Virus record (IMG/VR): IMGVR_UViG_3300021255_001555
Span: 6,845 to 70,844 of that record
Direction: 5' to 3' (one strand)
Length of the DNA stretch: 64,000 nt
Source: a virus
Lineage: Duplodnaviria; Caudoviricetes
Every line of letters starts with the position of its first letter. The stretch's first letter is position 1. The notes beneath the pieces were generated by a model. The model searched no databases and was not told the DNA's origin. It saw nothing but the letters and a program-made list of their open reading frames with translations. Below, in pieces: positions 19,747 through 40,684 of the stretch. Position numbers and translations under genes: made by a program.

Positions 19747-19760
19747 TTCACATCACACCT

Positions 19761-20051
19761 TTAGAACTTTACTTGATACATCATCACCCCTGTACAATCA
19801 GCGGCAAAGTCACCGCCATCCCAATGGTCATCAATTAAACCTTCTTTAATTGCTCCGATAGCTAACGTAGTAAATGCTGCCCAAAAATCATTGAATCCTG
19901 CATTGCGTTTCAACTGGTCACAAATAACATAACTTACTGCTGCATGGGCAATCTTATCTGTACCAATGTTATCCTGAATATCATGTAAATCATTGGCGTA
20001 ACAAGGAGTTACAAACATAATCAAAGCAAATACCATTGCAATAATCTTCAT
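19761..20051 (-). CDS. small membrane protein (VanZ/YfiM-like)
   Basis: Signal peptide; DKIAH and GAIKE...D..AD motifs. Confidence 0.5.
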   Translation of the reverse strand: MKIIAMVFALIMFVTPCYANDLHDIQDNIGTDKIAHAAVSYVICDQLKRNAGFNDFWAAFTTLAIGAIKEGLIDDHWDGGDFAADCTGVMMYQVKF

Positions 20052-20082
20052 CTAACTATCATCTCCAAATTAAAAAGTAGGG

Positions 20083-20241
20083 TTAGTAATAGCCCTGCTG
20101 TGACTCATCTTCCTTTTCCTCTACAAGCGGTGGAACGTAGATTGGAAACTCATGGTTACGACATACCCACTGAGGTTTCTCAGGAGTACCAATGTTTTCC
20201 ATTTTCTTCGTACAATGTGGACAACGCTTCTTTACTGCCAT
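20083..20241 (-). CDS. 52-aa zinc-ribbon peptide
   Basis: GGAGG RBS; MAVKKRCPHC...WVCRNH; below the ORF-track cutoff. Confidence 0.45.
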   Translation of the reverse strand: MAVKKRCPHCTKKMENIGTPEKPQWVCRNHEFPIYVPPLVEEKEDESQQGYY

Positions 20242-20243
20242 GA

Positions 20244-20546
20244 TTATCCCTCCAATTCTTTTCTATCAAGCTGATACTGTGCTTCAATTTCAGCCATTTC
20301 TTCTTTTAGCTCTGTAACGGTATCATTATCACCACTAAGAATAGCATCCATAAGATAACCTTTGAGTTCATTCTTGTTGGCTTCGTACTCAGCTTCTAAC
20401 TGTGCCAGCTTTTCCTCTTTTGTCGGCACATGGATAGGTTCGGGATGCAGTTCTTTCCATTCCGGCTCCGTGTAATATCCTCTTGGCTTTTCTTCCCAAA
20501 CCTCGAAGTTTCCGCTTGGTGAATAGTATTTTCCCATGTATATCAC
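20244..20546 (-). CDS. tail fiber assembly/chaperone-like protein
   Basis: Directly after the fiber gene; P..PT.EEK.A helical C-terminus. Confidence 0.55.
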   Translation of the reverse strand: MIYMGKYYSPSGNFEVWEEKPRGYYTEPEWKELHPEPIHVPTKEEKLAQLEAEYEANKNELKGYLMDAILSGDNDTVTELKEEMAEIEAQYQLDRKELEG

Positions 20547-20549
20547 TCC

Positions 20550-21800
20550 TTAAATGTCGCAGTATTCAAATGTGATGTAACCATCGCCGCCGTTGCCACC
20601 GTTAAGCTGCCCCATTGAACCGCCAGCACCACCAGCACCTGCATAACCATTAATGTGGTTATAGAAGGCGGTTGTGGTATATTGTCTACTAACACCGCCA
20701 CCGGGACCACCGCCCACACCACCGTCAGATTTCCAAACATCATTTCTGGAGGCACCTGCTACACCACCTGCACACCCATATCCAATTGTTTCGGTGCCGT
20801 TTATTGTAGATGCACCACCTTGCCCGGCGATACCATATTGCCCGCCGTGTCCACCTCCAGCAGAATAAATCGAGTCTGCGACAGTAATAGACGTAGAGCC
20901 TCCGTCCCCACCTCTGTTACTTGCACCACCTGGGTTTGTAGTATTACTCCCTATACCACCAGAACCACCTGCCCCAACCGTGAAGCTATAAACTTGCCCA
21001 GCTGTGAGTTTTTCGTAGACAACTAAATGCCCCCCTTGACCGCCACCGGCACCAGAAAAAGCCCCTTGAGCCGAATCTTTCATATACCCCGAACCACCAC
21101 CGCCACCGCCTTGCAAGGTGATACGGTAAGTGCCTGTGACAGGTGCGGTAAAACTACCACTAGACGCGAAGGTTTCTTTGTGATTAAACACTCCCATGTT
21201 GAGAGTATTTGAAACACTGTCCTGAATAATAGAGTAAGATACAGTTTCAATATCCGCACTCACTACAGAATCACTTGTAGTTACAGTGGTAATACCGTAC
21301 TGGGTACTGTATTCACTAGATTTAACAGAGGTAAATACTGTATTTGTCCCGTCATACAACTTCAATCCTCTGTACTCAGTGAAAACAGGAGTCATATCGT
21401 CTGGTACAGTAAAAGAATTTTCAGATACATAGGTAACATCAATAGTAGGAGTCTTCCATTCATCAACATTAGCTGTCACTGGATCCTTTAAAGTGCCATC
21501 TGGATTCATTGAAACATCAAGACGAGATTTTAGGTCATTCATTTGCCCTCGTGCCTCAACAATTTCAGCATGAGTAGCAGTGGTATCTCCATCTGGAATC
21601 CACGCTGTACCATTGTATACATAGGTTACATTGTTAGATACATTAAAATACTTCTGACCAATCGCTGGGTCAGTAGGTGCAGAGCTACCGCTAAAATTAC
21701 TACGGAGAGCTTCAGTATTATCCTGTAAGTTACCTACGTATTCACGTACAAGCTGTCCTGCACCACGGATAACACCGCCCTGATTATGATAAGTTTGCAT
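20550..21800 (-). CDS. tail fiber / receptor-binding protein with glycine-rich C-terminal domain
   Basis: NFSGSSAP; FTAPVTGTYRITLQGGGGGG...GGNGGDGYITFEY Gly-rich domain. Confidence 0.8.
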   Translation of the reverse strand: MQTYHNQGGVIRGAGQLVREYVGNLQDNTEALRSNFSGSSAPTDPAIGQKYFNVSNNVTYVYNGTAWIPDGDTTATHAEIVEARGQMNDLKSRLDVSMNPDGTLKDPVTANVDEWKTPTIDVTYVSENSFTVPDDMTPVFTEYRGLKLYDGTNTVFTSVKSSEYSTQYGITTVTTSDSVVSADIETVSYSIIQDSVSNTLNMGVFNHKETFASSGSFTAPVTGTYRITLQGGGGGGSGYMKDSAQGAFSGAGGGQGGHLVVYEKLTAGQVYSFTVGAGGSGGIGSNTTNPGGASNRGGDGGSTSITVADSIYSAGGGHGGQYGIAGQGGASTINGTETIGYGCAGGVAGASRNDVWKSDGGVGGGPGGGVSRQYTTTAFYNHINGYAGAGGAGGSMGQLNGGNGGDGYITFEYCDI

Positions 21801-21803
21801 ATA

Positions 21804-24800
21804 TTACCATCCTTTCACTGTGAGTAAAAACGATACATTCGTTGGATTTCCACTAGCATCAAATGTTTTTACTGTCACAGACTGCGTATTAACATCTATT
21901 ACTGGGAACGCATACAAAGAACCAGTGATTACACAGCTTACCTGTGTAGGAATTTCAAGGAACTCCTCGTCAAACTGGAAGGTTTTTGTACCATTCACAG
22001 TAGTATCTCTGTATGTATACTCTAAGTCTGGAACATCATAGCATTGATATAACTTAGTAACATGAACTCGTGTATTAATAGAACCGAGAGTATAGACTAC
22101 TTTATACTGTATGTATCTAAACTGATACGATGCAGATACATACAACTGCCAGTCAGTCCATTCTTCACTGTCTTCGCTGTATCTAATGTAAATCTCTCTG
22201 TCCCAATTGTGATTCATGTTTTCAAAGCTATTTGTCCAGAGTTCATCAAATGTTTTATCCCATATATCATCAAAGGAAATATCAAATTCATTGACATCTT
22301 CTTCAAATATATAGTTAATATTGGTCAATTTATTTTTTCTTATATCAATAGCATCAGAAACAATAGTAAACGTATCCAAACTCTCTGAATCAAATGTTTC
22401 AATATAGTCATCAAAGGTTGCATCCCAGTCATCGTCAAATAGTATGCCCCACGGATTGACAAGGGTTCCATCCGTTGCTTTAAACAGACCATTAACAGTG
22501 TAATTACCAAGCTCAATACTATCTTGTTCAAGGATTACATTCTTAAACCTGTTAGGGTCTCTTATGTATATCTGATAGATAGCATCGTGAACACTTTCAT
22601 TTCCTGCGTTATCCACTGCCTTGACACGGAATACATGGTTACCTTCCCACTGTATATCTACATTACGCACTCTATATGGGAACGAATAGAAGTCACAGAT
22701 TTTCTTTGCATCTTCCCATGTTGTTCCGTCCATACGCAGTTCAACATGGTCAAAGTCTGGATCATCTGCTATTTTGCCTTCCAGTATAAACTCATTGTCA
22801 TTACTGTACTGTCCAATGACAAACTTTGTAATATCGCCGGGAGGACTATTCTTACCAACGAGTGCTAATGATGCCACAGCACCACTACTTGTTCTATTTG
22901 TTGTATTAACAGTTACTACTTTTACTCTAATAGTGCGATGTGGTATTGTGTTTTGAATTACAAATGATGTATTATTGGCATTGCCAGCATATGTATAACT
23001 CTTGCCATCATATGAATAGTAAACATTATACGAAGATATAAATGGATAATTCGGAGCTTTCCATGTTGCAGTTACATGACCAATGTAAGCACCGCCCTGA
23101 CTAAGATAGCCATCTTCTTCAAGTGTTAAATTCAAAGGGTTCAATACTTCCCCTGCATACGGTGTTGGCATTGTAGAATACTGATACCAATGAATATTGC
23201 CGCCGAGTTCGTCTGTATAAATAGTGTCATTGTACTGTCTACCACTGATTTCAAATGTCCCCTTGTTGGTTTCTTTGATTTCAGCGATACGAATTGGCAT
23301 ACCGTCAAATACTCCGTGATAAGACAATGTAACAACATCGCCCGGCTCAAGGTGCATTGCTTGCATACCAGTGGAGAACGACACCTGCAATGGACAAGTA
23401 AGATTGTAATCACGGTAGAACCTTGCTAATCTCAATGCCTGATTCTGTGAAGTTACACCTTCAAGCCCTACCTGCTTAGTGATAATCTTCTGCCGTTCCT
23501 TTTGATCTGCTTGGTCTTCGCATATAGCTACAATTGACTTCCAATTATTCAAAGGGTCAACAAAGGATACCTCATAGCGGTTAGGGGTTTCAGATAGTTT
23601 CAAAGGTTCAATTTTTAAATCCATCATGGTATCATCATTGAAACGATAACTGATAGGAGTTGGCTTCTCAATTTTTAACTTTAGCTTCCCCTGAGAATAC
23701 ACAAGATAACCTGCAAAGCAAGCAAGCATTTCTTGTAACCATTCGAGAGCAGAACGCTTCTCATCGAGTACCATGTTAAGTTCGTATCTCTTTGCTCTCG
23801 TTGTTGTACCGTCACCTGCATAGAATGAAATTACTTCATCACAGTAATTAGCAGCTTCAATGAACGCATCATTATCTAGGTCAGAAGCAGAGAACCACTT
23901 GCCAAGACCATATCGTTTTGACAATAAGAAATCTCTTACACACCACGCAGGATTTGTTGAATACTCTGTCCTTCCTGTTTTAGCATTGTATACCTTGCGA
24001 CCTTTAACTAAACATGACACTGACGGATTACCACTAAGTTCATCCGATATTACAAATTTCATATCAAGCCATGCCATGTCAGTATAGGCACCAGTCTCGG
24101 TATAGTTACTTGGAATAGAACAATCTCTAAACGTAAAGTTAGTACCACCGCGTACTGTATCTGCTGTGAAATTTATTGGATTGTTATAGCATCCACCGCC
24201 CGGTGTCGATAGCTTGCCGGGGTATAACGATGTACTAGCCACTGGAAACGCTTGCCAACCTTCGCCTAGTCTGTTGATATAACTTATCAAAGCATTGACA
24301 TTCACCTGATAGTCCCAGTATGTAGTATTCTGATTCATATCATCAGGGATACAGAGGAAAATATCATGGTTACCACCGCTACTCTTAAGATACAAGTGTC
24401 TGTCCTTTATCTGTGCTGTAGCGTTGCTATACTTGATATTCTGCAATGTAAATACAGTGTTAGATGTCTGACTACCAGTAGGTATTAGCAATTCATTTGC
24501 AGTTACACCGCTAACACCTTGAATTCCACCTTCGCACAATACAACGTGCTTGTATAGCTCACTAGAATCAGAGTTTGTCTTATGATACGTCTGGTTACCA
24601 GTAATCCTACGCTCACCATAAACTAGCGGCAATACTCCATTAGAAGACATTGATTCCTGTGCTCTATCAAAACGTTGAACATTGGCGAACCCTGAAGTAT
24701 TATTATTTGGTCTGTTAAACGCAGACCATACAGATGAAAACAGTGAAGCACCAAGCATGAAGTTAGCTGTCCACCCAGTTACACCCCATGAGGAAAACAG

Positions 24801-24962
24801 TCCTGCTCCACCCATAGCTCCTGCTGTCAGTACACCGAGAGCAATACTACCAATGATTTTTCCTGCGGATTTACCATCGCCTCCACCACCGAATAACTGT
24901 GAGTCAAACTGGAACATCCTTGAGGCACGACGACGCATTTTTCTTTCACATCTCATTGTCAT
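21804..24962 (-). CDS. central tail tip / host-specificity protein (lambda gpJ-like, with FN3 domains)
   Basis: LPLVYGERRITG, VKGRKVY, NPAWCVRDFL...YGLG, LEPGDVV, FN3-like repeats. Confidence 0.9.
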   Translation of the reverse strand: MTMRCERKMRRRASRMFQFDSQLFGGGGDGKSAGKIIGSIALGVLTAGAMGGAGLFSSWGVTGWTANFMLGASLFSSVWSAFNRPNNNTSGFANVQRFDRAQESMSSNGVLPLVYGERRITGNQTYHKTNSDSSELYKHVVLCEGGIQGVSGVTANELLIPTGSQTSNTVFTLQNIKYSNATAQIKDRHLYLKSSGGNHDIFLCIPDDMNQNTTYWDYQVNVNALISYINRLGEGWQAFPVASTSLYPGKLSTPGGGCYNNPINFTADTVRGGTNFTFRDCSIPSNYTETGAYTDMAWLDMKFVISDELSGNPSVSCLVKGRKVYNAKTGRTEYSTNPAWCVRDFLLSKRYGLGKWFSASDLDNDAFIEAANYCDEVISFYAGDGTTTRAKRYELNMVLDEKRSALEWLQEMLACFAGYLVYSQGKLKLKIEKPTPISYRFNDDTMMDLKIEPLKLSETPNRYEVSFVDPLNNWKSIVAICEDQADQKERQKIITKQVGLEGVTSQNQALRLARFYRDYNLTCPLQVSFSTGMQAMHLEPGDVVTLSYHGVFDGMPIRIAEIKETNKGTFEISGRQYNDTIYTDELGGNIHWYQYSTMPTPYAGEVLNPLNLTLEEDGYLSQGGAYIGHVTATWKAPNYPFISSYNVYYSYDGKSYTYAGNANNTSFVIQNTIPHRTIRVKVVTVNTTNRTSSGAVASLALVGKNSPPGDITKFVIGQYSNDNEFILEGKIADDPDFDHVELRMDGTTWEDAKKICDFYSFPYRVRNVDIQWEGNHVFRVKAVDNAGNESVHDAIYQIYIRDPNRFKNVILEQDSIELGNYTVNGLFKATDGTLVNPWGILFDDDWDATFDDYIETFDSESLDTFTIVSDAIDIRKNKLTNINYIFEEDVNEFDISFDDIWDKTFDELWTNSFENMNHNWDREIYIRYSEDSEEWTDWQLYVSASYQFRYIQYKVVYTLGSINTRVHVTKLYQCYDVPDLEYTYRDTTVNGTKTFQFDEEFLEIPTQVSCVITGSLYAFPVIDVNTQSVTVKTFDASGNPTNVSFLLTVKGW

Positions 24963-24968
24963 ACCTCC

Positions 24969-25766
24969 TTATCTATATGTTGATTCAAATGGAATTGCAG
25001 GGAATCCACTGAAATGTTTTAAGTTACCAAATCTTTCACATTCGGCTTTCGTTTTATTACACCCTCTGGATAACTGTGCTGTCTTACCAACGACTCTGTC
25101 TTGCAAAAAGTTTACATTGAGTTTTATGGTATTGCCATTAGATTCAGTAATAATTCTACTTTCGCCCTCGATGGAACATACGCCGTTAATCCAAAAGTTC
25201 TTATTGAATGACCTTGATACTGTCAATGTATTACCATTAACGCCAGTAACACTTACATTTGTTGTAGATTTTGACGCACCGCACTGTTCATCGCCAAACT
25301 CAGAATTACAATGTAAACTATATTGTCTATTCGGTACATCAATCTGCGGAAACCTTGACATAATCTTGCATGACAATGTTCCATTGCTAAACGATAGTTC
25401 ATCAAGAAAGCCATAGTAAAGCCACTCAAATATATTAGGGTTCGACAAACTATCAGGGTATTGAATTCTACGAACCAATACGTTTGCCATTCGAGGGTCA
25501 TAGCCTTTCATTACATAACTAAGAAGACCATAATCAACATCGCCAATACTAAGCTGACAATTGTCCGTTATGTTATCCATGGAACGAGTTATGCTTTCTC
25601 GTTGGATAGGCACTGCAAGATAACGAGTTCCTGCAAATGTTATATCTGTATCAGATGCAACGAAATGAATTGTCCCTGTTCTCAAGGCTATATCATAGAT
25701 TTCCAAGAAGAAGGTTTCGTTTGACTCCTTCATCTCTTGCATTTTTACTGGAAGAACTACAGCCAT
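24969..25766 (-). CDS. tail tip / hub protein (gpL / DUF2163-like)
   Basis: C-terminal HCNSEFGDEQCG...GCNKTKAECERFGNLKHFSGFP Cys cluster. Confidence 0.8.
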   Translation of the reverse strand: MAVVLPVKMQEMKESNETFFLEIYDIALRTGTIHFVASDTDITFAGTRYLAVPIQRESITRSMDNITDNCQLSIGDVDYGLLSYVMKGYDPRMANVLVRRIQYPDSLSNPNIFEWLYYGFLDELSFSNGTLSCKIMSRFPQIDVPNRQYSLHCNSEFGDEQCGASKSTTNVSVTGVNGNTLTVSRSFNKNFWINGVCSIEGESRIITESNGNTIKLNVNFLQDRVVGKTAQLSRGCNKTKAECERFGNLKHFSGFPAIPFESTYR

Positions 25767-25769
25767 AAC

Positions 25770-26129
25770 TTATTCCTCCGCATCTTTCAGTACCATAAGA
25801 CTTACCTGTGCCTTGTAACCCACAGTGCCTTCGCCTTCATACCCACGAACTTCAGTGAAATCAAGGTTAGTCTCACCGAATCTCACGCGATACGTTGTAC
25901 CCTCGTAGTTCCACAAGAAGGGTTCAAAGTTACCACCACGAGCAACAAAAAAAGACTCAAGGTATTCCTTCATTTCCTTTGAGCCTGACACATTGAATGA
26001 AAACGTAAGTCTTGGTGTTATCCATTTACGTTGAATCTGAGTGACACCGGATTCAAAGTCTACCTTATTGTTATTGAAATTGTAATTCTTTGTTACCTCA
26101 CCGCGTGGCGTTAGTATTAATGTTTCCAT
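25770..26129 (-). CDS. distal tail protein (gpM / DUF2460-like)
   Basis: FESG..QI...FFVARGGNFEPFLW...VRF. Confidence 0.75.
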   Translation of the reverse strand: METLILTPRGEVTKNYNFNNNKVDFESGVTQIQRKWITPRLTFSFNVSGSKEMKEYLESFFVARGGNFEPFLWNYEGTTYRVRFGETNLDFTEVRGYEGEGTVGYKAQVSLMVLKDAEE

Positions 26130-26133
26130 TCAC

Positions 26134-26532
26134 TCACTTCCTTTTGTACGCCACCTTAAAGAATGGTTGCCACCATTGTCTATGGTAGATCGTACTGTAT
26201 GAATTTGTATATCCATCTACAATCTGTGTTGACAGTAATCGACCATTGCCAACGTAGATACCAAAATGTATTTCACGGTTAATCAGGAAGATACAAATGT
26301 CACCATAGGTCATGTCATTGGGGTCTCGTGTTTTGTTAAAGTTTGCACCGAACCACCGTACAATCCTGCGTGGAGCATCTTTCATCCAATTCTCATCAAT
26401 GGGAAGTCCATCGTCTATCTTGATCCAACCATGCTCACGATAGAAAAGCCTTACAAGACCAAGGCAATCTACGCCTTCAAATGTATCTCCATTAAATTTA
26501 TATGGTATTCCTATGTATTTATCTGTATCCAT
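26134..26532 (-). CDS. NlpC/P60 tail assembly protein (gpK-like)
   Basis: YIGIPYKFNG...GVDCLGLV...HFGIYVGNG. Confidence 0.88.
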   Translation of the reverse strand: MDTDKYIGIPYKFNGDTFEGVDCLGLVRLFYREHGWIKIDDGLPIDENWMKDAPRRIVRWFGANFNKTRDPNDMTYGDICIFLINREIHFGIYVGNGRLLSTQIVDGYTNSYSTIYHRQWWQPFFKVAYKRK

Positions 26533-26878: not shown

Positions 26879-27472
26879 ATAATAACCATTAAACCTAGCA
26901 TACCAAGAGCCTTCGCTCTACTTTGCTTTCAAGCCTAATTGTTCGACCACAGAGATGACAAGTCTGAGCAGTAGGGAGCTACCCTAATGCTTCTTGCCAC
27001 GGTCTAGCTCTGAGAAGACTGGTTACTTCCAACGTTCACCCGACATTCAGAATTATGTTTTGGTTACATATATTTTCATAATGTCTTCTTGTTAAACCTT
27101 GTGGTAATTGGGCTACTTGTACGACACTGCTCTCTTATAGGAACGTTACTTCCATCACCACAAATCCCCTTGGGTGGTATTCCCTTGTATTTTTTCTACG
27201 TTTACCAGACGCAGATACAAGGGTTATTCTCCACAGGAGCGTCTATTGCAAGGACGAGAGGGTGTCTGTCTTACCAGACCATTAGCATTGCATTGGTTCC
27301 AGTGGTTGAACCTCGTTCTCCCCCGATAGCCTTACGGTTATCAGGAAGGGTATCACAGGGGCGTATCCGCCAATCCAACTAACAAGTGAATCCTCTATTA
27401 GAAACCAATCCTGCAAACGGAATCACCGCCTTATGCAGCAGGTTTTGCTATGCTAGGTTTAATGGTTATTAT
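26879..27472 (-). ncRNA. large structured ncRNA, candidate ROOL (or GOLLD-related)
   Basis: Perfect 24-bp terminal inverted repeat; many internal hairpins; no credible ORF; adjacent to tRNA genes; strand inferred from context. Confidence 0.7.
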
Positions 27473-27525: not shown

Positions 27526-27595
27526 TGACAATGACAGGACTCGAACCTGTATCTCCCTGTCAAGACCGTTGTTTTCTCCATTAAACTACATTGTC
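27526..27595 (-). pseudogene. tRNA-like element with a collapsed anticodon arm
   Basis: Perfect GACAATG/CATTGTC acceptor stem, D arm, ACAGG-TTCGAGT-CCTGT T arm; anticodon arm unpaired and 2-3 nt short. Confidence 0.7.
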
Positions 27596-27863: not shown

Positions 27864-27939
27864 TGGAAGCAGAGGGTGGAATCGAACCACCGATGTTGAG
27901 CTTATGAGGCTCATAGCTTAACCACTAGCTTACTCTGCT
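27864..27939 (-). tRNA. tRNA with CAT anticodon (elongator Met, or lysidine Ile2)
   Basis: AGCAGAG/CTCTGCT acceptor; TGAGC-CTCATAA-GCTCA anticodon arm; GGTGG-TTCGATT-CCACC T arm; encoded CCA; lacks initiator features. Confidence 0.95.
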
Positions 27940-28848: not shown

Positions 28849-31800
28849 TTATCTGAACCCCATATTTCGTTGCTGACCCATGATTGCCTGTACGGCTCGT
28901 GGGTTTTCTTGTAATGCACGGAGAACATCAGCAGACGATGCTTGAGTATTGAGGACAATCATCTTTCCATTGCCACCATCAGTACCCATGTTTTTCAACA
29001 TTTCATTCTGCTGTGCCATCTTCTTGTTCTGCTCACGAAGAAGATACTCTGTCATCTTATTGCTACCATAGATATTAGTAGTACGCTGTGCTACCTGTGG
29101 ATTAATCGTAGGGACGTATGGAGTTGGATTGGTTATTGATGTATCCAATGGACCGCCAGTGGCATAACCATTGAGTTTATCGAGTGTATCGTAACCAAGA
29201 GCTTTCGCAGACTTCTCATTGATTACGTACTCACCATTAGACAACCATACGAACTTATCTTTGTTCCGCAGATAAGTAAGGATAGAATCACTGCGACCAG
29301 TACCAGCACCCTTAACTCTCCCTGAAGGAGCACCGCCATCAGCGAACTTCGGTATAGAACCACCATTGGCAAATATAGGTAACGCTGCTACAGCAGATGT
29401 AAAGCTAGGCATACCAATGGAAGCCGTTGCTGATACTGCACTGCCACCACCAAAGAGACCACCAAGAAGATCACCTGCGAATCCAAGGAGTCCTCCACTA
29501 CTTCCACCGCCACCTAACAACTGACCAGCGAATCCAAGTACCTGTGACAAGAAATTATTACTGTCATTCAAGAGACCACTGTTTTGTGATACCTTGTTTG
29601 TCAAGTTGTTTTCGCTGTTAGTGTTGTACTGGGTGATACTATTGGAAGTCTTTAGGACACGGTTTAAGTCAAACATGGTTTTATCCATTTTAAACATGGA
29701 GTCCATGTTGCCCTGTATAGCCTTAGTGATTGGTACGGAACTATCATATGTCTTTGTCAATCCAAGGTTTTCACTGAATGACTTAGACATATCATAGCTA
29801 CCATAACCAAACGTGCGACCAGTGCTGAGTACACTGAGTATCTGAGCAAGATAATTGTTGGTAGTGTTTATCTTGGTATCAATGCTACCAGTATACTGCT
29901 GTATCTGTGACCACTGAGTTTCAGACTGCTTCTCTGCGTCTTTCTTGTTTAAATCACCGAACCCAAGGAGCTGAGCAAAGAATGATGGATTGTCAGTCTT
30001 ACCGGTCAGCAATAAATCCCACGCGTTTCTACCAAGGTCAACCCAGAGATTACGGAGCATTTCACCGAAGTCCTTGCCATCAAAGATTAACTCCTGAACT
30101 AGCTTATTGTATCCTTCGCGGATGGTACGGATATGCTTTGTTGAAGCATCGCGTATCTCTTTGTTTACAGATACGAGTTCCTCTTTGATAGCATTGTGCT
30201 TCTCAATGTACTTAGGGTCAGTTCTATCGAGTTCTGCGAGTTCCTTTGATAATGCCTTGCGTTTCGTGAGAAGGTCAGCGTAAGCATCGGTAGCTCGTTT
30301 CTGTCCCCATGCGTCTTCAGTGTTGTCTACACCGTAATCACGCATCTTAGCATTGTGGTCAATGATTTTCATTGCATCATTGTACTGTGCTTCAATGAGT
30401 TTAACCTGTGCATCCACAGCCGCCTTGGAAGCAGTAAGGTATTTATCCTGCCAATCACGGAACGCTTCGGTATTCTCATGTTCCTTTGTGGTCTCATCTT
30501 CCATAAACTTGCTATACTCAGCTAAAGCAGCAGTAGTCTTTGCTACCTCTGCTCTTGCTTTGTCAGACTCAGTAGCACCATTGCCCAGTGCAAAGAGTTC
30601 TTTGTTACTCTTACGCTCGGCATTTTTTTGTGCCTGAGATACAGCCTTATCAGCACTGGAGAACCATTCGTCAGCAGCTTTTTCACGAAGGTCTGCAATC
30701 TTATCCTTAGCTTCCTTGAGTAACTTCACGGATTCAAGGAGCTTCTCTTTGACAGCCTGTAAAAACTTCTGACGATCATCGGACTTATTGGACTCATCTT
30801 CCATAGCATTAGAGATAAGGTCAATCTGACCACTGATACCAGCGTTGTCCCATTCGTCCTGCGTTACACGATGGGTTTCACCGTTAATCGTGGAACTAAG
30901 GAAATCGGCAAGTTTATCATTGAAAGCCACAGCAACTTCACGAGCACCAGACTGGATAATCTTTGTAGGCACCTGTCCACCCATCTGACGATAATCGCTA
31001 CCATGGACTACGCCGCCAGCACCACCGTTAGCACTGGAGCTATTGCCAACATAGCCACCCTGACCGTCATACATTACTACGTGGTCGTTATCACCGTATA
31101 CAATGATATCTCCCGGTTTAAGCTGACTGGAATCAAATGGAATAACCTTGTCACCTGCATCGGATACCAGTCGAGGAACATTAACTACGCCATCTGCAAA
31201 TTCCTGTGATAAGAACTGGTTCTGCATTGCATTACCAATTTTAACTACGGCTTCAACACAGGCTTCTGTACCATTAGCCAAGGTCTGACCAAGGAATCCT
31301 TCGACAGCCGCATTGATTTCTTCAACGGAAGTCTCAGCACCAGACATCTTGATTACATTGGTATCAAAGAGCTGACTATTGACTTCATTGATATGAGATT
31401 CAGTCTTACCTTGTTCAACCTGCATATCGGCTATAGCTTTCTTATACAAGTCATTGCGTTTCTTTGCACTGTCTAAGGTAGTACCTTGATTCTTCTCAAT
31501 GCGATTCAATGATTTTAACTGGTCATTTAGCTTTGACTCAATGTTCTTCATGCGGTTAGAAATGGAGATAACAACTGGATCCTTTTCCTTTTGCTTTTGA
31601 ACACGCGGTTCACGGGAAGACTTGGATTTTTCTTCTGAAGGTTGTACTATGTCACCACCGCCAGCAGAGGTGCGAACACCGCCATTACCGTCAAGCTGTT
31701 TAAGAGTTTCAATATTATTTTTAATTTCATCCATCTGACCCTTAAAGTGAGCATCCTGCATATTCATCATGGTGTCTTTTTGATACTGGTCCTCATTGTA

Positions 31801-33219
31801 TATCTTGTCGTTTAAGACATCCATGCGAGCTTTGGCTTCTTTTAACTGACGTTCTTCAAAGGCGGTTCTATTTTCCTTCTGTTCAAGCTCCCACACTTTA
31901 TCATTGAGATTATCATACTCATGTTGATAAGCATTTTCGTTGATACGCGACCACCATAACTGAACTTTTCCTAACGCAATAGTTGCACTTTCGAGGGCAG
32001 ATAAAGCATCAATTTTCTTTTCAATATTTTCAACAAATTCCTGTCTGTCCCTCTGATATTCTTCTATCATTGTCGCAGTATCAGCTTTGAGTTGTTTTGT
32101 ATATTCTTCAATAGCCTGTTTTTCGTTTTCAGCAGCAGTTATTTTTTGCTCAGTTGTTTTGTGGAACACCTGATATTCTTCTTCTGCTGCCGCAGCTACG
32201 TCTTGGCTATTTTTGATACGTTCAATAGCTCCTTGATTTAACTGTGCAGATAGCTTTTTCTCGGTTTCTTCAATATCTTTACTGAGATTAGCTTGTTTTT
32301 CAGCAGTAAGAGTTTCATCTTTCTGGGCTTGCATAAGAGCTACATAAGAGCTAGTCAGAGCATGAACGAATTCATCCTGTTCTTTGTAGATTTCTATAGC
32401 GGCAGACTGTTGCTCAAGTTCTAATACCTTTTGGTTACCAAATTGCTGTGCCGCAGATGTAGCCTCAAAATAAGATGCTGTTAATTCTGCTAAAGCAACT
32501 ATAGCAATACCGACAACGCTTTCGATTAACAATGTCTTAGCAGAAATATCTAATTTTCTCAGCTCTACATTTAATCTATTTACACCGACAGCACCGCCTT
32601 CTCCAGCGGCTCCAACAGCACCTTCGGCAACGGCGAGTCCAGTCATTCCGCCTGTCGCCATTGTTGCGTTACGTCCAGCTTGTCTTTCTGCTGTTGAGAG
32701 AATACGCTGACCATCTGCACTATATATAGCAACTGAACCAGTACGTTCTTCTGCCATAGCTAAAGAGTTAACTTCGCTTGCAGATGTAGCCGCCGCAACA
32801 CCTATAGCTTCTTCTGATGCAACTGTAGAAGCCATAGCTTCGTTGAATGACATACGGTAAGATTGGATAACATTGGAAATATATTTCCATACTTTATGAA
32901 CGCCCCATAAAGCACCTGCAAATTCTAATGTAGTGGATATGACTTTCCACGTTGTAGAATCCAAATTATTTAACCATGTTAATAATCCGTTTCCTAGTTC
33001 AAGGAAGTTTTTAATAAACTCGGATATGCCACCGCTACCACCGTTTGCAATAATACCAGTAATATTATCTTTGAAAGATTGCCATTTTCTAGCTACAGTA
33101 TCTAACTGCTCGGCAACCTGTTCGTTTGTAAATCCCTGAGAATTAATTGCTAATTCCCAGTTGTTAATGATTTCCTTATAATCTGACAGCATAGCTGCCA
33201 CCTTTGCCCACTGGAACTT
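28849..33219 (-). CDS. tape measure protein, exon 2 (contains an NlpC/P60-like peptidoglycan hydrolase domain)
   Basis: In frame with exon 1 after intron removal (SGG|KFQW); helical repeats; EACVEAV...GDIIVYGDNDHVVMY. Confidence 0.9.
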   Translation of the reverse strand, partial: KFQWAKVAAMLSDYKEIINNWELAINSQGFTNEQVAEQLDTVARKWQSFKDNITGIIANGGSGGISEFIKNFLELGNGLLTWLNNLDSTTWKVISTTLEFAGALWGVHKVWKYISNVIQSYRMSFNEAMASTVASEEAIGVAAATSASEVNSLAMAEERTGSVAIYSADGQRILSTAERQAGRNATMATGGMTGLAVAEGAVGAAGEGGAVGVNRLNVELRKLDISAKTLLIESVVGIAIVALAELTASYFEATSAAQQFGNQKVLELEQQSAAIEIYKEQDEFVHALTSSYVALMQAQKDETLTAEKQANLSKDIEETEKKLSAQLNQGAIERIKNSQDVAAAAEEEYQVFHKTTEQKITAAENEKQAIEEYTKQLKADTATMIEEYQRDRQEFVENIEKKIDALSALESATIALGKVQLWWSRINENAYQHEYDNLNDKVWELEQKENRTAFEERQLKEAKARMDVLNDKIYNEDQYQKDTMMNMQDAHFKGQMDEIKNNIETLKQLDGNGGVRTSAGGGDIVQPSEEKSKSSREPRVQKQKEKDPVVISISNRMKNIESKLNDQLKSLNRIEKNQGTTLDSAKKRNDLYKKAIADMQVEQGKTESHINEVNSQLFDTNVIKMSGAETSVEEINAAVEGFLGQTLANGTEACVEAVVKIGNAMQNQFLSQEFADGVVNVPRLVSDAGDKVIPFDSSQLKPGDIIVYGDNDHVVMYDGQGGYVGNSSSANGGAGGVVHGSDYRQMGGQVPTKIIQSGAREVAVAFNDKLADFLSSTINGETHRVTQDEWDNAGISGQIDLISNAMEDESNKSDDRQKFLQAVKEKLLESVKLLKEAKDKIADLREKAADEWFSSADKAVSQAQKNAERKSNKELFALGNGATESDKARAEVAKTTAALAEYSKFMEDETTKEHENTEAFRDWQDKYLTASKAAVDAQVKLIEAQYNDAMKIIDHNAKMRDYGVDNTEDAWGQKRATDAYADLLTKRKALSKELAELDRTDPKYIEKHNAIKEELVSVNKEIRDASTKHIRTIREGYNKLVQELIFDGKDFGEMLRNLWVDLGRNAWDLLLTGKTDNPSFFAQLLGFGDLNKKDAEKQSETQWSQIQQYTGSIDTKINTTNNYLAQILSVLSTGRTFGYGSYDMSKSFSENLGLTKTYDSSVPITKAIQGNMDSMFKMDKTMFDLNRVLKTSNSITQYNTNSENNLTNKVSQNSGLLNDSNNFLSQVLGFAGQLLGGGGSSGGLLGFAGDLLGGLFGGGSAVSATASIGMPSFTSAVAALPIFANGGSIPKFADGGAPSGRVKGAGTGRSDSILTYLRNKDKFVWLSNGEYVINEKSAKALGYDTLDKLNGYATGGPLDTSITNPTPYVPTINPQVAQRTTNIYGSNKMTEYLLREQNKKMAQQNEMLKNMGTDGGNGKMIVLNTQASSADVLRALQENPRAVQAIMGQQRNMGFR

Positions 33220-33718
33220 CAATTATCTGTTATCCGTTTTATTATAAAATAAAACGAGACAGGTCATTTCTGCCTGTCTCTCACATTTTATTTAATTAGG
33301 CTATTTTGTGAGTTCGGACTGTACATTCACTCTTTTACCATGTGGCAGTCAGAGGGCTATTTGCAGTCTCTAGGGTTTCACATCTCGTCTTCTTTTTTTA
33401 ATCTCCATACAGCTATTTTATAACACGCGAAGAATCCACCAGTACATATAAGCCACTGAGCGAATATTGAATATTGCTTATCAAGTAACGCTCCTATGGC
33501 ACATAGCGTGTATACTGCATAGAGGAAGCCAGTGACGATACAGGCTTGTTTTAGTCCGATTAAAAAGTTAATGACACCGAATATAATTGCAAATAAGAAG
33601 AAGAACATAACAAACCCTCCTTTGTGTTTTACCACGGTCTTGTCCTGCCTATAGGATTTTAACCGTTATTAAAGCGTTCTAGTAATGTATTTCTACATCA
33701 CGCGGCAAGTTTACGTCT
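33220..33718 (-). mobile_element. group I self-splicing intron (499 nt) in the tape measure gene
   Basis: 5' exon ends in U and intron ends in G; P1, P10 and P4 pairings; R element CTAGAGACT; S element ATGTACAGTCC; P9 hairpin; splicing restores the frame. Confidence 0.93.
33378..33608 (-). CDS. intron-encoded 76-aa membrane protein
   Basis: AGGAGG RBS then ATG 33608; 2-3 hydrophobic helices and a charged tail; lies in the P6 loop. Confidence 0.75.
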   Translation of the reverse strand: MFFFLFAIIFGVINFLIGLKQACIVTGFLYAVYTLCAIGALLDKQYSIFAQWLICTGGFFACYKIAVWRLKKEDEM

Positions 33719-36700
33719 ACCGCCAGAAATTGCGAGCAAAGTTTTTTGGATATCGTTGTTTGTATACTTGGTTTGGATTGCTATATCAAGGATTACCTGT
33801 TGTATATCACGGAATCTTTCAACGCCATCCTCGCCAACTTCTTTAACTTTTATACCAATCTTATCTAACTCTTTAACTGCTTTATCACTTCTAATAGATG
33901 CAATAAATGTTTTCAACATTGTACCAATAGCCGAGCCTGATAAAGCTGTAGAACGCGTTGCTTGTGCTATCAATGCGTTTAAGAATTCAAAACTCATACC
34001 TGCTTGGTGTGCTACAGAACCGCTTCGTTCAACTGCGGCTGCAAGGTCCTGTGCAGTTACACCTGCATTATGTGATAACTTGGTATAAACATCAATGATA
34101 CGATTAGAATAAGCTAATGCTTCAGCAGTGGAATGTGCTTGCATACCAAACTGGAACATAGCTGCCTCAACAGCTTTCGTAGATTCTTCCATCGAGAAGT
34201 TATCTGCCACTGCGAGTTTTGCGGATTGAGCTGTAAGTAAGTTTACAGTTTCTCTTTCCTTATACATACGTCCCCAGAGTCTTGCGGATTCAATAATATC
34301 ACTATTGGATACACCGTACTTGGCTCCAATGTTAATCATCCGTCTCTGTTGGTCTTCGTAGGTAGCTTTTTGCATTTCCTTATCTATAGAGCGATTATTC
34401 ATAAGGGCTTCTATAGGGTCAATACTTAACGGTTCTCCAAGGCTAGGCATTACAGTTCTCAGATTAGCCATATTTTCTTCAAACTCTTTAATAGCTTCGC
34501 CAGCCCTACCTAAGAAGTCGTATGTTTCATAGAATCCGAAGGCTCCACCTATCCAACGAAGTTTATGTTCCCAACCTTTTGTAAGGTTATCAGGGTTAAG
34601 CAACTTCATTTTACGGTTAATTATATCGGCTTCCCTTTGAGCCTTCCTTAATTCAACCTCGGTTTCTTTGATATATTTTTTTATACCAACATTACCGGGG
34701 TTTCTTCTAATTAAACTATAAGCTCTCTCTAAAGAACCTGTCAAGGCATTAACTTTTTCATTTGCAGTAGAAAAATATTGATCCTTCCAAGCATCGAGAT
34801 TACGCATACTATTTCTGGTGTTTATCTCTTTGGCACTCATACCAGCAAACGGGATAATCTGTAGTTTTTCCTTTTCCCCTCCGAGTTCCTCATACTCTCT
34901 CTTGAGCTTTTCAAGTTTAGCTACAGAGTTATCAACGTATTTCTGAGTGACCATTTCTCCACGCTCAAGCAATGCGTTTTGTCTTGCGATTTCCTCATTG
35001 TACTGTCCTTGTATAGTAAGGAGTCGCTGAGTGTGGTCGTTAGCCTTAGTGTTCTCAGGGATAAGTTCATTGAGTCTGTTACGATTACCTACGTTCCACT
35101 GACGATAATACCCAAGTGCATTAGGGTTTACACCGTACATAGCAAGAGCTTTGAACGTATCGGCTTCCTCATAGTCATTCTTAAGAGCCTGTCTGTCACT
35201 TGGTTTTGTCTGTGACTCAACGGCAAGCTGATAATCTTTCTTGAGTTGGTTCAGTTTACCAAGGAGTTTATTAACAGCTTCTTGCTGTTTATCAAGTTCT
35301 TTTGTAGCTTGTTTTTCAGCAGCTATAATTTCATTCCAAGCATCTTTGTGGTCTTTAGTGTTATTTTTAATACGTATCTGCTCATCATTGTACCACTTAT
35401 CGGCAAGACTTACATTGTTCTTATTCTGATTTCCAAGGTCCTTCTGGAGTTTAGCCTCGTCTTTTTCTTTCTGTTTATTTTGAATCCTAGATAAAGCAAA
35501 ACGAACTTTGGTTTCATACTCAAGAACTCTCTGACGTACCTTGGCTTCGTCATTGCTTTCCATGATAAGCCGTGCCTGATTAATGATTCTACGACGATTA
35601 GCAACTTTCTCAGCAGAAGCAATCTCGGCTTTTTCGCGTTCAGCAAGGTCAAGCTGATATTGCTTTGCTACGGTAAGGTTATTCTTTGCGGCAGTGGCAT
35701 TACGTTCAAGGTTCATGTTTCTGAACTGTAGTTTTTGTAATTGCTCCTCAGTGCCGTTCCATTGTCCGTCATTATAAGCCTCAAGCAAACTACGAATACG
35801 CTGACGTTGCTTAGAAATTTTCTCTGGTTTTCCGCTCCACACTGCATCGTATTCTTCGTTCCAGTTCAGTGGTTTCTTCTGTTTTCCTCCACCGCCACCT
35901 TTTGCAGTGACCTGACCTTCGATTTTAATGGTCTTCGTTGGGAGTCCATTGATTAACCTATGGGCTTCTTCGACAGCAGTTTTTAAACCACTAATATCAC
36001 CTTCGATTTTAATGGTCTTCGGTTTGAGTTCGTCGCTCTTACCGTTCTTACGATAGTCAAGCATTTTTGACATATCGGCAAATGGTCTTACTGCGTCTAC
36101 TACTTTATCAAAGTTCTTTCCTTTGATACCAAGTTTATCAATGGCATTATTATTGATAGCATTGATAAGCTGACCAAAAGCATGATTACCCTTGAAGTGC
36201 CTTGCAAGAGCACTCATCTTACCTTCGATATCAGTTGCCTTATTATATTCTTCAAAGAAAGCCTTGTAATCCTTGGTATAACTAGGAATTTTAAATGTAT
36301 CACCCTTGGCAAATTCAGCGAACTTCTTACTGGATTTCATTGCTGATTGTGCTGCATTGACATAGTTCTTCCAAAGAGACCTATAGCTATCGCCCTTGGT
36401 TCCAGACTCTAAACCAATGTCAACAGTAACTTTTCTGTCGAGCTTCTTGAGTTGACTTAGAGAATTATTGATAGTCTTAACAAGACCAGTATTATTACCA
36501 TTAATTTCTACTGTCTTATTACCAAGACCATTGATTAAAGTATGGGTCTGCTCCAGTAATACATTGAGTGCGGCAACGCTTGTGACAGCTTTACTCTTTG
36601 TAGGGTCACTGTCAAACATTTCTGACGTAGCTTTCTTTACCTTTTCCCCTTCGGCTGCAAGACTACCCAGTGAGGTCTTAATGCTTTCTGCAACTTTTTC

Positions 36701-36883
36701 AAGGCGTGATATTTGCTTGAAATCAATATCAAATGATAAAGGCTTGTTCTTTTTACCTTCGGCATTAATTGCATTACGTAACTGAGTAACCCTTGTTATG
36801 GCTTGTGCAAGGTCTTTAAAGTTCTTCGCAATAGTACCAGCGTTGGAAGCAATGTTTAAATCTATACGAGGTTTTTGTGCCAT
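33719..36883 (-). CDS. tape measure protein, exon 1
   Basis: TMP core (AQSAKLAVADN, AAVERSGSVA, IGTMLKT); coiled-coil; follows the tail chaperones. Confidence 0.92.
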
Positions 36884-40127: not shown

Positions 40128-40684
40128 TGGATTTCAACTCCTCTCAACATTACCTTGATTTCTTCGGTGAATACGCCTTCGTCTGCAAGTGTAACCTTGA
40201 TATCATAGTCATCACGCATCTTCCAACGCATGACACCGCCCATCTGCTTGATATTACAAGCGAGCATCCCACAGGCACGTTTGAGTTGTTCTGGTAATTC
40301 GTCGTATCCGCAGGTGTATGTTACTTGTAACTTCTTAGGAACCTTGCGGAACATTAACTCTCGTGGCATATGGAATGTGTAATACAATGAGTGGTCATCG
40401 TCGAACTCAAGGCAACTTACTGGTAATTCAATTTTTTGCTCACCGAAAATACTTTTGACATCCGCAATGATTTTATCAATTGAGATGCGAGGAAAGTGAT
40501 TCAGCTTACCTCGGAGCTCATCGGATTTCCATTTAATTTCAGTGCGTTCAACGTATTTCTGTGGCAGAAAACTTACACCCTTATAGGCATTAATGAGAGT
40601 AGTTGCAGCTTCTACGTGATCCATTGTCACACCAGAAACCAGACCGCAGTACAACGGTATTTCACTCTCTTTTAAATAACTCAT
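40124..40684 (-). CDS. head-tail adaptor protein
   Basis: YLKESE...VTYTCGYDELPEQLKRACGML adaptor pattern. Confidence 0.75.
   Translation of the reverse strand: MSYLKESEIPLYCGLVSGVTMDHVEAATTLINAYKGVSFLPQKYVERTEIKWKSDELRGKLNHFPRISIDKIIADVKSIFGEQKIELPVSCLEFDDDHSLYYTFHMPRELMFRKVPKKLQVTYTCGYDELPEQLKRACGMLACNIKQMGGVMRWKMRDDYDIKVTLADEGVFTEEIKVMLRGVEIQ

What the first reader, a model, noticed from the sequence alone, without database searches (positions are those of the whole stretch)
33220..33718. Group I intron in the tape measure gene carries a membrane-protein gene instead of a homing endonuclease
Seen: exon 1 ends TCT GGC GGU; the intron guide GCCGC pairs with it via the U-G wobble (P1); the adjacent AACTT pairs with exon 2 AAGTT (P10); AACGGT/ACCGT (P4), CTAGAGACT (R), ATGTACAGTCC (S), a GAGACAGG/CCTGTCTC P9 stem and a terminal G are present. 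Splicing gives ...ISGG|KFQW... and a 2511-aa TMP. The P6 loop holds an AGGAGG-led 76-aa ORF (33378-33608) with 2-3 TM helices and no LAGLIDADG, HNH or GIY-YIG motif. Established: group I intron ORFs are almost always homing endonucleases. Inference: the intron acts as a cargo cassette co-expressing a membrane effector (superinfection exclusion, lysis timing or an ejection helper) and gating tail assembly on splicing.
Basis: partly seen in the sequence, partly recalled or inferred. Interest (0 to 1): 0.9.

Follow-up and report, generated by a model that had tools for sequence, protein, structure and literature searches.

The report
Tape-measure intron carrying membrane-protein gene
A self-splicing-type (group I) intron really does interrupt this gut phage's tail tape-measure gene. 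Where related introns carry a DNA-cutting homing enzyme, this one carries a conserved gene for a tiny membrane protein of unknown function, so the intron appears to act as a carrier for an accessory gene.

Summary
The 499 bases at 33220-33718 (minus strand) split a 2511-aa tape measure gene exactly at SGG|KFQW. An intron-less relative, and an intron-less DNA allele in a cattle gut run, read straight through that junction.

The insert belongs to an intron family that I found in about 20 distinct versions, at three or more sites of homologous tape measure genes. The hosts are gut or rumen phages and Selenomonadales prophages. The family shows:
- an invariant U-G pair at the 5' splice site and a terminal G;
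- P1 and P10 guide pairings that co-vary with the exons;
- a P3-P9 core with the P3/P7 pseudoknot (92% of cells paired, 26 of 55 pairs with compensatory changes, 0 of 500 shuffles as good).

Rfam's group I model misses all members.

Sister introns are ORF-less or carry GIY-YIG, LAGLIDADG or Vsr-like nucleases. Here the P6 loop holds a 76-aa protein with 2-3 membrane helices and an AGGAGG ribosome site. The protein is an orphan, is seen only in this intron, stays intact in three alleles, and has dN/dS of about 0.3.

Two other unrelated membrane-protein cassettes sit in sister introns, also under purifying selection.

Splicing and function are untested, and no RNA evidence was obtained. This scan has already met cargo-carrying tape-measure introns on other DNA. 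I found no paper on them.

The parts
33719..36883 (-). Tape measure exon 1 (1055 codons). A PhageMin_Tail domain covers residues 850-1047.
   Evidence: In the intron-less L004, the residue matching the last residue of this exon (1055) is directly followed by the start of exon 2.
33220..33718 (-). Group I-type intron, 499 nt. It starts after the U of the U-G pair and ends in G (33220).
33698..33700 (-). In-frame TGA. It stops exon-1 translation 7 codons into the unspliced intron.
   Evidence: the ORF 33698..36883 ends here.
33702..33711 (-). Internal guide. AACUU (the P10 partner of exon-2 AAGUU) is followed by GCCGC (the P1 partner of exon-1 GCGGU).
   Evidence: Both pairings co-vary with the exons in relatives.
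33682..33701 (-). P2 hairpin GUGAUGUA-GAAA-UACAUUAC.
   Evidence: (minimum-energy fold) and compensatory changes.
33634..33675 (-). P3 5' strand (GCUUU, 33675-33671), P4 (ACGGU/ACCGU) and P5 (UCCU/AGGA).
   Evidence: P3 and P5 co-vary. P4 is invariant.
33612..33621 (-). Shine-Dalgarno AGGAGG (33621-33616). It overlaps the helix strand AGGGUUU (33618-33612), which pairs with AAACCCU (33378-33372) and closes the ORF loop.
33378..33608 (-). 76-aa ORF (P0001) with 2-3 hydrophobic helices and a charged tail RLKKEDEM, in the P6 loop. The coordinates include the stop codon.
33356..33368 (-). P7 5' strand GACUG (33368-33364) and P3 3' strand AAAUAGC (33362-33356): the pseudoknot junction.
33317..33354 (-). 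P8 (CUCU/AGAG) and P7 3' strand CAGUC (33321-33317).
33235..33312 (-). P9 (CUCACA/UGUGAG), P9.1 (AGACAGG-CAGAAAUGA-CCUGUCU, with the loop conserved across the family) and P9.2 (CGUUUUAUU/AAUAAAACG).
   Evidence: The terminator-like call on P9.1 is explained by the conserved intron hairpin followed by the U-rich P9.2 strand.
28849..33219 (-). Tape measure exon 2 (1456 codons plus stop).

Best explanation
The 499-nt insert is a group I intron of a family that specialises in the tape measure genes of gut and rumen siphophages of Selenomonadales-type hosts.

How the intron should work (inferred from the sequence):
- It is transcribed with the late tail operon.
- Ribosomes leaving exon 1 stop at a TGA seven codons into the intron.
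- The RNA folds into the P1-P10 architecture.
- It excises itself by the usual guanosine-initiated two-step reaction, joining ...SGG to KFQW... This lets the 2511-aa tape measure protein be made.

The cargo (inferred from conservation):
- The slot that holds a homing endonuclease in sister introns (the P6 loop) is filled by a real, selected gene for a 76-aa inner-membrane protein with 2-3 helices and a short charged C-terminal tail.
- The gene has a strong ribosome-binding site and no promoter of its own. It should therefore be made late, from the pre-mRNA or the excised intron.
- Its ribosome-binding site is partly buried in the helix that closes the loop.

Mobility (inferred): with no nuclease of its own, the intron and its cargo can spread only by recombination, or by homing driven in trans by the GIY-YIG enzymes of sister introns that occupy the same site.

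Function (my guess only): the protein acts at the cytoplasmic membrane late in infection. It could be a lysis-timing or holin-modulating factor, or a block to entry of competing phage DNA. I put lysis or membrane modulation at about 0.3, exclusion at about 0.25, and something else at about 0.45.

What is shown: the anatomy, the family, the covariation and the selection on the ORF. What is inferred: splicing, translation and function.
For: Junction:
- The intron-less relative L004 runs from exon-1 residue 1055 straight into exon-2 residue 1, in frame.
- A DNA contig in bovine gut run X2 joins 33216 to 33718 with 2 letters between, a net loss of 499 nt.

Family:
- About 20 distinct introns were recovered from viral, metagenome and genome collections. 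One lies in the Mitsuokella multacida DSM 20544 chromosome.
- Matches were found in 4 of 151 genomes of that order.

Ribozyme structure:
- The U-G pair at the 5' splice site is present in 20 of 20 distinct introns. All introns end in G.
- P1 and P10 change together with the exons.
- On 20 distinct introns, 92% of cells are paired and 26 of 55 pairs carry compensatory changes. No shuffle of 500 does as well, and slid controls give 34-43%.
- On the 8 ORF-less introns, 99.5% of cells are paired and 14 pairs have double changes, again 0 of 500 shuffles.
- Model R1, built from the ORF-less relatives only, hits 33536-33726 (103.6 bits) and 33212-33462 (83.4 bits).
- An unconstrained fold recovers P2, P5, P7, P8, P9, P9.1 and P9.2.

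Sister introns hold GIY-YIG, LAGLIDADG_2 and DUF559/Vsr-like ORFs.

The ORF:
- 11 of the 12 differences between this intron and L014 fall in the 231-nt ORF. One falls in the other 268 nt.
- Five changes are synonymous and six are conservative replacements, giving dN/dS of 0.30.
- The ORF is intact in three alleles.
- It is found only inside split tape measure genes.

Other cassettes: two unrelated membrane cassettes in sister introns have dN/dS of 0.15-0.41 at dS up to 0.93. They too occur only inside tape measure introns.
Against: - Rfam's Intron_gpI model (RF00028) gives no hit for this intron or for its compact ORF-less relatives, even at E up to 10.
- The subgroup is not assigned.
- Selection on this particular ORF rests on only 11 substitutions, so dN/dS of 0.30 is not significant by itself.
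- The protein has no homologue outside its own 90%-identity cluster among 1.84 billion representatives, so nothing ties it to a function.
- The phage already has a conventional lysis block, with an endolysin at 18364-19017 and small ORFs upstream of it.
- No promoter precedes the ORF.
Confidence: 0.72

Rival explanations
1. The intron is real, but the 76-aa ORF is not a functional gene. It would be a young, still-open stretch left by an insertion into the P6 loop, and it looks membrane-like only because the sequence is T-rich.
For: - It is an orphan with no relatives beyond 92% identity and no family hit.
- Only 11 substitutions are available to judge selection.
- Its third hydrophobic segment is weak.
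Against: - The ORF, its AGGAGG site and its ATG fill the insert almost exactly.
- It is intact in three alleles from cattle and pig gut samples of several studies.
- All replacements are conservative, and dN/dS is 0.30.
- Two other, unrelated small membrane ORF cassettes in sister introns show clear purifying selection at much greater divergence: 57-61% identity and dN/dS of 0.24-0.35. The pattern is therefore recurrent, not accidental.
Confidence: 0.18
2. There is no splicing. The tape measure function would be supplied by two separate polypeptides, and the region between them would be an ordinary intergenic moron with its own terminator.
For: - Gene callers annotate two genes plus the small ORF in every relative.
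- The P9.1 hairpin followed by a U-run scores as a terminator.
- Exon 2 has a possible internal start: AAGGUGG, then 5 nt, then an AUG at codon 10.
- The Rfam model is silent.
Against: - The break lies in the middle of a continuous conserved protein, and intron-less alleles read through it.
- The insert is bounded by U-G and G.
- Its guide sequences track exon changes.
- About 50 base pairs of a pseudoknotted group I core are kept by compensatory changes.
- The hairpin called a terminator is conserved in family members that have no U-run after it.
- The Met at codon 10 is also conserved in the intron-less alleles, as plain coding sequence.
Confidence: 0.05
3. The cargo is a superinfection-exclusion moron of the HK97 gp15 or Sie2009 type. 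It would be expressed from the prophage to block DNA entry by related phages.
For: - It is a small inner-membrane protein encoded in the tail gene region of a probably temperate phage. The genome has tyrosine recombinases and a prophage relative exists.
- From my own knowledge, not tested here: HK97 gp15 is a membrane moron next to the tape measure gene, and exclusion proteins such as Ltp target the tape measure protein.
Against: - No sigma-70-like promoter lies upstream of the ORF inside the intron.
- The ORF is on the sense strand of a late operon.
- It has no homology to any known exclusion protein.
Confidence: 0.2

Closest known systems
Group I introns in tape measure genes of Bacillus cereus-group prophages (TMP-IVS1, IVS2, IVS3a/b; Tourasse and Kolsto 2008, PMC2504315). 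That paper also lists an intron in the Lactobacillus delbrueckii phage JCL1032 tape measure gene.
   Same: - The host gene is the same.
- There are several insertion sites per gene.
- Homologous introns are re-targeted to different sites by changes in P1.
- Homologous introns carry unrelated nuclease families, or none.
- They spread passively with prophages.
   Different: - Those introns are assigned to subgroups IA1 and IA2 and carry either a nuclease or nothing.
- BLAST found no similarity between this family and any deposited phage.
- This family lacks an obvious P7.1/P7.2.
- In three lineages this family carries small membrane-protein genes instead.
Phage T4 td, nrdB and nrdD introns with I-TevI, I-TevII and I-TevIII (my own knowledge)
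   Same: - A phage group I intron with the ORF looped out of a peripheral helix.
- An in-frame stop soon after the 5' splice site.
- A ribosome-binding site partly hidden in RNA structure.
   Different: - The T4 ORFs are endonucleases that drive homing.
- Here the ORF is a 76-aa hydrophobic protein with no nuclease motif and no detectable promoter of its own.
Morons, that is accessory genes inserted in phage late operons, for example the HK97 gp15 membrane exclusion protein (my own knowledge)
   Same: A small membrane-protein gene that is not needed for virion structure sits in the tail gene region and is variably present among relatives.
   Different: - Morons sit between genes and bring their own promoter and terminator.
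- This gene sits inside an essential gene and can be tolerated only because the surrounding ribozyme removes it from the mRNA.
Cargo-carrying tape measure introns noted earlier in this scan on other DNA (e1-5845897, e1-3753236, e1-3510172 and others)
   Same: A group I intron in a tape measure gene carries non-nuclease passenger genes, often small membrane proteins.
   Different: - Those cases are reported with their own promoters, and many lie on the opposite strand.
- Here the ORF is on the sense strand, has no promoter and fits tightly into P6.
- Sequence look-up found no shared cargo.

Membership tests
Group I intron | The 5' splice site follows a U that forms a U-G wobble with an internal guide sequence (P1). 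| tested here: met
   Exon GCGGU pairs with guide GCCGC. The U-G pair is present in 20 of 20 distinct family members. Position -4 switches from C-G to G-C in 4 members.
Group I intron | A terminal G at the 3' end, and a P10 pairing between the guide and exon 2. | tested here: met
   Every intron recovered ends in G. AACUU/AAGUU is replaced by GAUUU/AAAUU and AAAUUU/AAAUUU in relatives.
Group I intron | A conserved core in the order P3-P4-P5-P6-P7-P3'-P8-P7' with the P3/P7 pseudoknot, followed by P9. | tested here: met
   92% of cells are paired, 26 of 55 pairs have compensatory changes, and 0 of 500 shuffles match this. On the ORF-less set, 99.5% are paired. P3, P5, P6, P7, P8, P9 and P9.1 all co-vary. 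P4 never varies.
Group I intron | A match to the curated covariance model Rfam RF00028 (Intron_gpI). | tested here: not met
   No hit at the gathering score or at E up to 10, for this intron or for the 250-290-nt ORF-less relatives. I treat this as a limit of the model, because the structural features above are met. It still means the assignment rests on my own structure.
Group I intron | Removal restores an uninterrupted conserved host gene, and intron-less alleles exist. | tested here: met
   L004, site A empty in L012, and a DNA contig in run X2.
Group I intron | Guanosine-dependent self-splicing, with ligated exons in RNA. | tested here: inconclusive
   The two RNA runs laid on the region did not cover the junction. 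In vitro splicing cannot be tested with these tools.
Homing endonuclease (LAGLIDADG, GIY-YIG, HNH, His-Cys, PD-(D/E)XK or Vsr-like), as the identity of the ORF | A catalytic motif or domain of one of these families. | tested here: not met
   Pfam and PHROGs give no hit, even at E up to 10. The same searches find GIY-YIG, LAGLIDADG_2 and DUF559 in the ORFs of sister introns.
Holin | A small protein with one or more membrane helices and a charged C-terminal tail, encoded beside the endolysin and belonging to a holin family. | tested here: inconclusive
   The size, helices and charged tail fit. It has no holin family hit. It lies about 14 kb from the endolysin at 18364-19017, which has its own small upstream ORFs.
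Moron or superinfection-exclusion gene | Its own promoter (and usually a terminator) that allows expression from the prophage. | tested here: not met
   The consensus scan finds no promoter on the minus strand upstream of the ORF within the intron. The scan covers only sigma-70-type sites.
IStron | A group I ribozyme fused to an IS element that has a transposase. | tested here: not met
   The only ORF in the insert is the 76-aa protein.

The most novel reading that the evidence does not exclude
Group I introns in the tape measure genes of gut phages are a recurrent docking site for small membrane-protein genes. At least three unrelated cassettes were captured independently, in the L6 and L9 loops at two insertion sites. 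These genes are known only from inside such introns. They would give the phage a late-acting membrane function, such as control of lysis or exclusion of competitors, and they would spread by riding on homing driven in trans by the nucleases of sister introns. The ribozyme would then serve as a way to place accessory genes inside an essential gene without harm.
Probability: 0.3. Interest if true: 0.8.

Novelty: new variant of a known kind. Interest (0 to 1): 0.62.

Why it matters
Phage group I introns are usually seen as selfish elements whose only passenger is the nuclease that moves them. In this family the same ribozyme scaffold carries either one of three classes of nuclease, nothing, or one of three unrelated small membrane-protein cassettes. 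Those membrane genes are under purifying selection and are known only from this location.

If the proteins are made, the intron acts as a safe harbour that lets a phage keep an extra gene inside an essential structural gene, an unrecognised route for accessory-gene traffic.

There is also a practical consequence. Annotation pipelines split these tape measure genes in two and call the ribozyme nothing, because Rfam's model misses the whole family. The covariance model built here (R1) could mend that.

Tried and rejected
- Rfam scans of the window, the region and the compact relatives gave no Intron_gpI hit. The only hit in the region was a chance-level match to Enterococcus sRNA 1C (E = 5.6).
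- BLAST of the locus and of an ORF-less relative against 50,697 deposited phages found no match.
- My first, stricter DNA pattern found only two contigs.
- Searches for the 76-aa protein by word index, exhaustive HMMER and the ESM Atlas gave only its own cluster and uninformative neighbours.
- The 76-aa protein shows no relation to the 80-aa cargo of the L002-type intron, by BLAST or by profile comparison at probability 1.2%.
- RNA evidence: one RNA run held only an exon-2 fragment and short pieces of other family members' P9.1. The metatranscriptome from the source sample held nothing. This says nothing about splicing either way.
- The full-length MAFFT alignment with inserts (A3) misaligned some rows. 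I replaced it with a core alignment in which the inserts were excised.
- Intein, group II intron, translational bypass and IStron readings were rejected on anatomy: the insert is not in frame, has no reverse transcriptase or domain V, is too long for a bypass, and has no transposase.
- I did not fold the 76-aa protein or test its self-association. Neither result would have changed the verdict.

Full report
**What is there**

The window belongs to a 70.8-kb IMG/VR virus record that CheckV rates 94% complete. The tail genes lie on the minus strand.

- One ORF of 1061 aa (36883..33698) carries a PhageMin_Tail domain at its end.
- A second ORF of 1457 aa (33222..28849) follows after a gap.
- The two exons are in frame and give 1055 + 1456 = 2511 residues.
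- One label needs correcting. GAGACAGG/CCUGUCUC is the second 3' hairpin (P9.1). P9 itself is CUCACA/UGUGAG.

**The junction is real**

- A relative from the viral collection (L004, 65% protein identity) has no insert. The exon-1 match ends at L004:4627 and the exon-2 match begins at 4628, in the same frame.
- A 237-nt DNA contig in bovine gut run X2 joins 33216 to 33718 with two letters between, a net loss of 499 nt. The intron-containing allele is in the same run.
- Both are DNA alleles. They show presence/absence polymorphism at exactly the predicted borders. They do not show RNA splicing.

**It belongs to an intron family**

A pattern taken from the P4-P5 region recovered 9 viral, 15 metagenome and 1 genome locus. 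The genome locus is in the Mitsuokella multacida DSM 20544 chromosome. After removing duplicates there are about 20 distinct introns.

- Most sit at the same site of homologous tape measure genes (SGG|KFQW).
- Others sit about 72 codons upstream. The L002-type intron splices to SGS|AIGTM, which is identical to this phage's uninterrupted sequence.
- A more divergent one sits further upstream in L012.
- Twelve loci, giving eight distinct sequences, are compact ORF-less introns of 248-274 nt.

**The fold is the group I fold**

I assigned P1, P10, P2, P3, P4, P5, P6, P7, P8, P9 and P9.1 on the ORF-less alignment.

- On those 8 sequences, 99.5% of cells form standard pairs and 14 of 55 pairs change on both sides. 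No shuffle of 500 reaches this, and sliding the partners drops pairing to 35-42%.
- On 20 distinct introns with the inserts excised, 92% of cells are paired and 26 of 55 pairs carry compensatory changes. Again 0 of 500 shuffles match, and slid controls give 34-43%.
- The order P3(5')-P4-P5-P6-P7(5')-P3(3')-P8-P7(3') gives the P3/P7 pseudoknot that defines the group I core.
- The U-G pair at the 5' splice site is invariant, and every intron ends in G.
- P1 follows the exon: GGCGGU/GCCGC becomes GGGGGU/GCCCUC, and GGGGU/GCCCC at the other site.
- P10 follows exon 2: AAGUU/AACUU, AAAUU/GAUUU and AAAUUU/AAAUUU.
- A covariance model built only from the ORF-less relatives (R1) hits the window at 33536-33726 (103.6 bits, E = 8e-29) and 33212-33462 (83.4 bits, E = 8e-23). 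These are the two halves on either side of the ORF. It hits nowhere else in the genome.
- An unconstrained fold of the 499 nt recovers P2, P5, P7, P8, P9, P9.1 and P9.2.

The one failed test is Rfam RF00028. It matches neither this intron nor the compact relatives, even at E up to 10. I did not assign a subgroup.

**What sister introns carry**

| Locus | Cargo | Position |
|---|---|---|
| L019, L013 | GIY-YIG enzyme (328 aa and intact in L019; broken by a stop in L013) | P6 |
| L020, L022, L029 | zinc-finger plus DUF559/Vsr-like nuclease | P6 |
| L028 | LAGLIDADG_2 enzyme | P8 |
| L012 (third site) | ORF with a GIY-YIG-type motif (read by eye, not scanned) | not determined |

This is the cargo expected of mobile group I introns. 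It matches the published picture for Bacillus cereus-group prophages, where there are three intron sites in the tape measure gene, homologous introns are re-targeted through P1, and homologous introns carry unrelated nucleases (PMC2504315).

**The ORF in this intron**

- The P6 loop holds AGGAGG, a 7-nt spacer and a 76-codon ORF (33608..33378). Its stop overlaps the returning strand of the helix.
- The insert is only slightly longer than the ORF.
- The protein has two strongly hydrophobic segments (1-19 and 21-42), a third weaker one (46-68) and a charged tail RLKKEDEM.
- It has no hit in Pfam or PHROGs.
- It has no relative outside one 92%-identical cluster, by word search of 5.8 billion proteins and by exhaustive HMMER over 1.84 billion representatives. 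The ESM Atlas gave nothing useful.
- All three contigs that encode that cluster have it inside a split tape measure gene.
- Comparing this intron with L014, 11 of the 12 differences lie in the 231-nt ORF and one lies in the other 268 nt. The ribozyme is almost frozen, while the ORF drifts at about the rate of the flanking exons (3-6%).
- The 11 changes are 5 synonymous and 6 conservative replacements, giving dN/dS of 0.30.
- A third allele (run X2) differs at two ORF positions and is also intact.
- This evidence is suggestive but thin on its own.

**The pattern repeats**

- L002-type introns (upstream site) carry two overlapping ORFs in P6, of 80 aa and 141-158 aa. Both have N-terminal membrane helices.
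- L026-type introns (same site as here) carry a 109-aa membrane ORF in the P9 loop.
- These proteins are related neither to each other nor to the 76-aa protein.
- Their homologues go down to 57% identity, and every copy looked up lies inside a split tape measure gene.
- dN/dS is 0.15-0.41 with dS up to 0.93, which is clear purifying selection.
- Three independent captures of small membrane-protein genes by one intron family make a chance open frame an unlikely reading for the copy in this window.

**Expression and mechanism (inference)**

- Unspliced, exon-1 translation stops at a TGA seven codons into the intron (33700-33698). A full-length tape measure protein therefore needs splicing. That is true of any intron in an essential gene and is not evidence of regulation.
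- No sigma-70-like promoter precedes the ORF on its strand. The ORF should therefore be transcribed with the late tail operon and translated from the precursor or the excised intron.
- Its Shine-Dalgarno sequence overlaps AGGGUUU, which pairs with AAACCCU just after the stop. In L002-type introns GAGGAG likewise lies in the long P6 stem. Translation and compact folding of the loop may compete.
- The terminator-like call on P9.1 is explained by a hairpin conserved across the family, with a constant loop CAGAAAUGA. In this phage alone it is followed by the U-rich strand of P9.2.
- The genome has no GIY-YIG gene. Its single HNH gene lies far from the intron. This intron cannot home by itself, and spread would need recombination or a sister intron's nuclease acting on the shared empty site.

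**Function**

Nothing ties the protein to a known family.

- The phage has an ordinary lysis block far away: an endolysin at 18364-19017 with small ORFs upstream. The intron ORF is therefore not the obvious holin, although its shape is holin-like.
- The phage is probably temperate. It has two tyrosine recombinases and a prophage relative. The lack of a promoter argues against a classical prophage-expressed exclusion gene.
- I therefore commit only to a late-made inner-membrane protein. I put lysis or membrane modulation slightly ahead of exclusion, and I mark this as a guess.

**Prior knowledge**

- Introns in tape measure genes are published (PMC2504315).
- Three full-text searches found no paper on phage group I introns carrying membrane-protein genes.
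- This scan has already recorded cargo-carrying tape measure introns in at least 14 other genomes. It has also noted two unfollowed ORF-less members of this very family.

**Verdict**

This is a new variant of a known kind: a group I intron whose passenger is a selected small membrane-protein gene rather than a nuclease. Splicing, translation and function remain to be shown.

Noticed in passing
window 26888-27466 (-), with tRNA genes at 27526-27595 (-) and 27867-27939 (-): A full-length ROOL RNA (Rfam RF03087, 310 bits, model positions 1-574) sits between the tape measure gene and the tail-tip genes, next to two tRNA-like genes. The second tRNA-like gene scores poorly in its anticodon arm.
   Followed up: partly
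L007:5465-5533 (the same sequence is visible in L022, L020 and L029): An int-alpA RNA motif (RF02996, 55.7 bits) lies inside the P6 loop of the upstream-site introns. It sits between an extended -10-like TGATATAAT and the zinc-finger/Vsr-like nuclease ORF. This is a possible regulatory leader for an intron-encoded nuclease.
   Followed up: no
L012 (reverse strand, about 10300-11390 and 11940-12187) and L020:2841-2875: Some tape measure genes hold two introns of this family at once. L012 has a divergent intron at a third site, holding an ORF with a GIY-YIG-type motif (read by eye), plus the ORF-less intron at SGG|KFQW. In L020 a second intron starts at the contig end.
   Followed up: partly
L013:6356-7408: The GIY-YIG nuclease ORF in this intron is interrupted by an in-frame TAG, giving 246 aa plus a 78-aa tail. 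Its relative in L019 is intact at 328 aa. TTGACA-17 nt-TATAAT sits directly upstream, and the TTGACA doubles as the P6 5' strand.
   Followed up: no
L026:2798-3124 and L037:2501-2830: A 109-aa membrane-protein ORF lies in the P9 loop rather than in P6, closed by a 9-bp helix AUGUUCGAU/AUCGAACAU. dN/dS is 0.16 between the two copies.
   Followed up: partly
window 33216/33718 in DNA run X2: An intron-less allele of a related phage and the intron-containing allele occur in the same bovine gut sample.
   Followed up: partly
window 40421-40467 (-): Weak match to the intron model R1 (13.7 bits, E = 0.04). It is probably chance.
   Followed up: no
window 18364-26532 (-): Downstream of the ROOL RNA are lambda-like tail-tip genes, namely a minor tail protein, a tail assembly protein and a 1052-aa J-like central fibre. 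These are followed by a fibre gene, small ORFs and an endolysin. The layout fits a host with an outer membrane (Negativicutes).
   Followed up: partly
window 28849-33219 versus L014, L034 and L037: The C-terminal half of the tape measure protein is highly variable among relatives. Over its first 2.8 kb, exon 2 of this phage and of L014 are 75% identical in DNA. This phage's exon 2 has no Pfam hit, whereas relatives have NlpC/P60-CHAP or SLT lytic domains.
   Followed up: no
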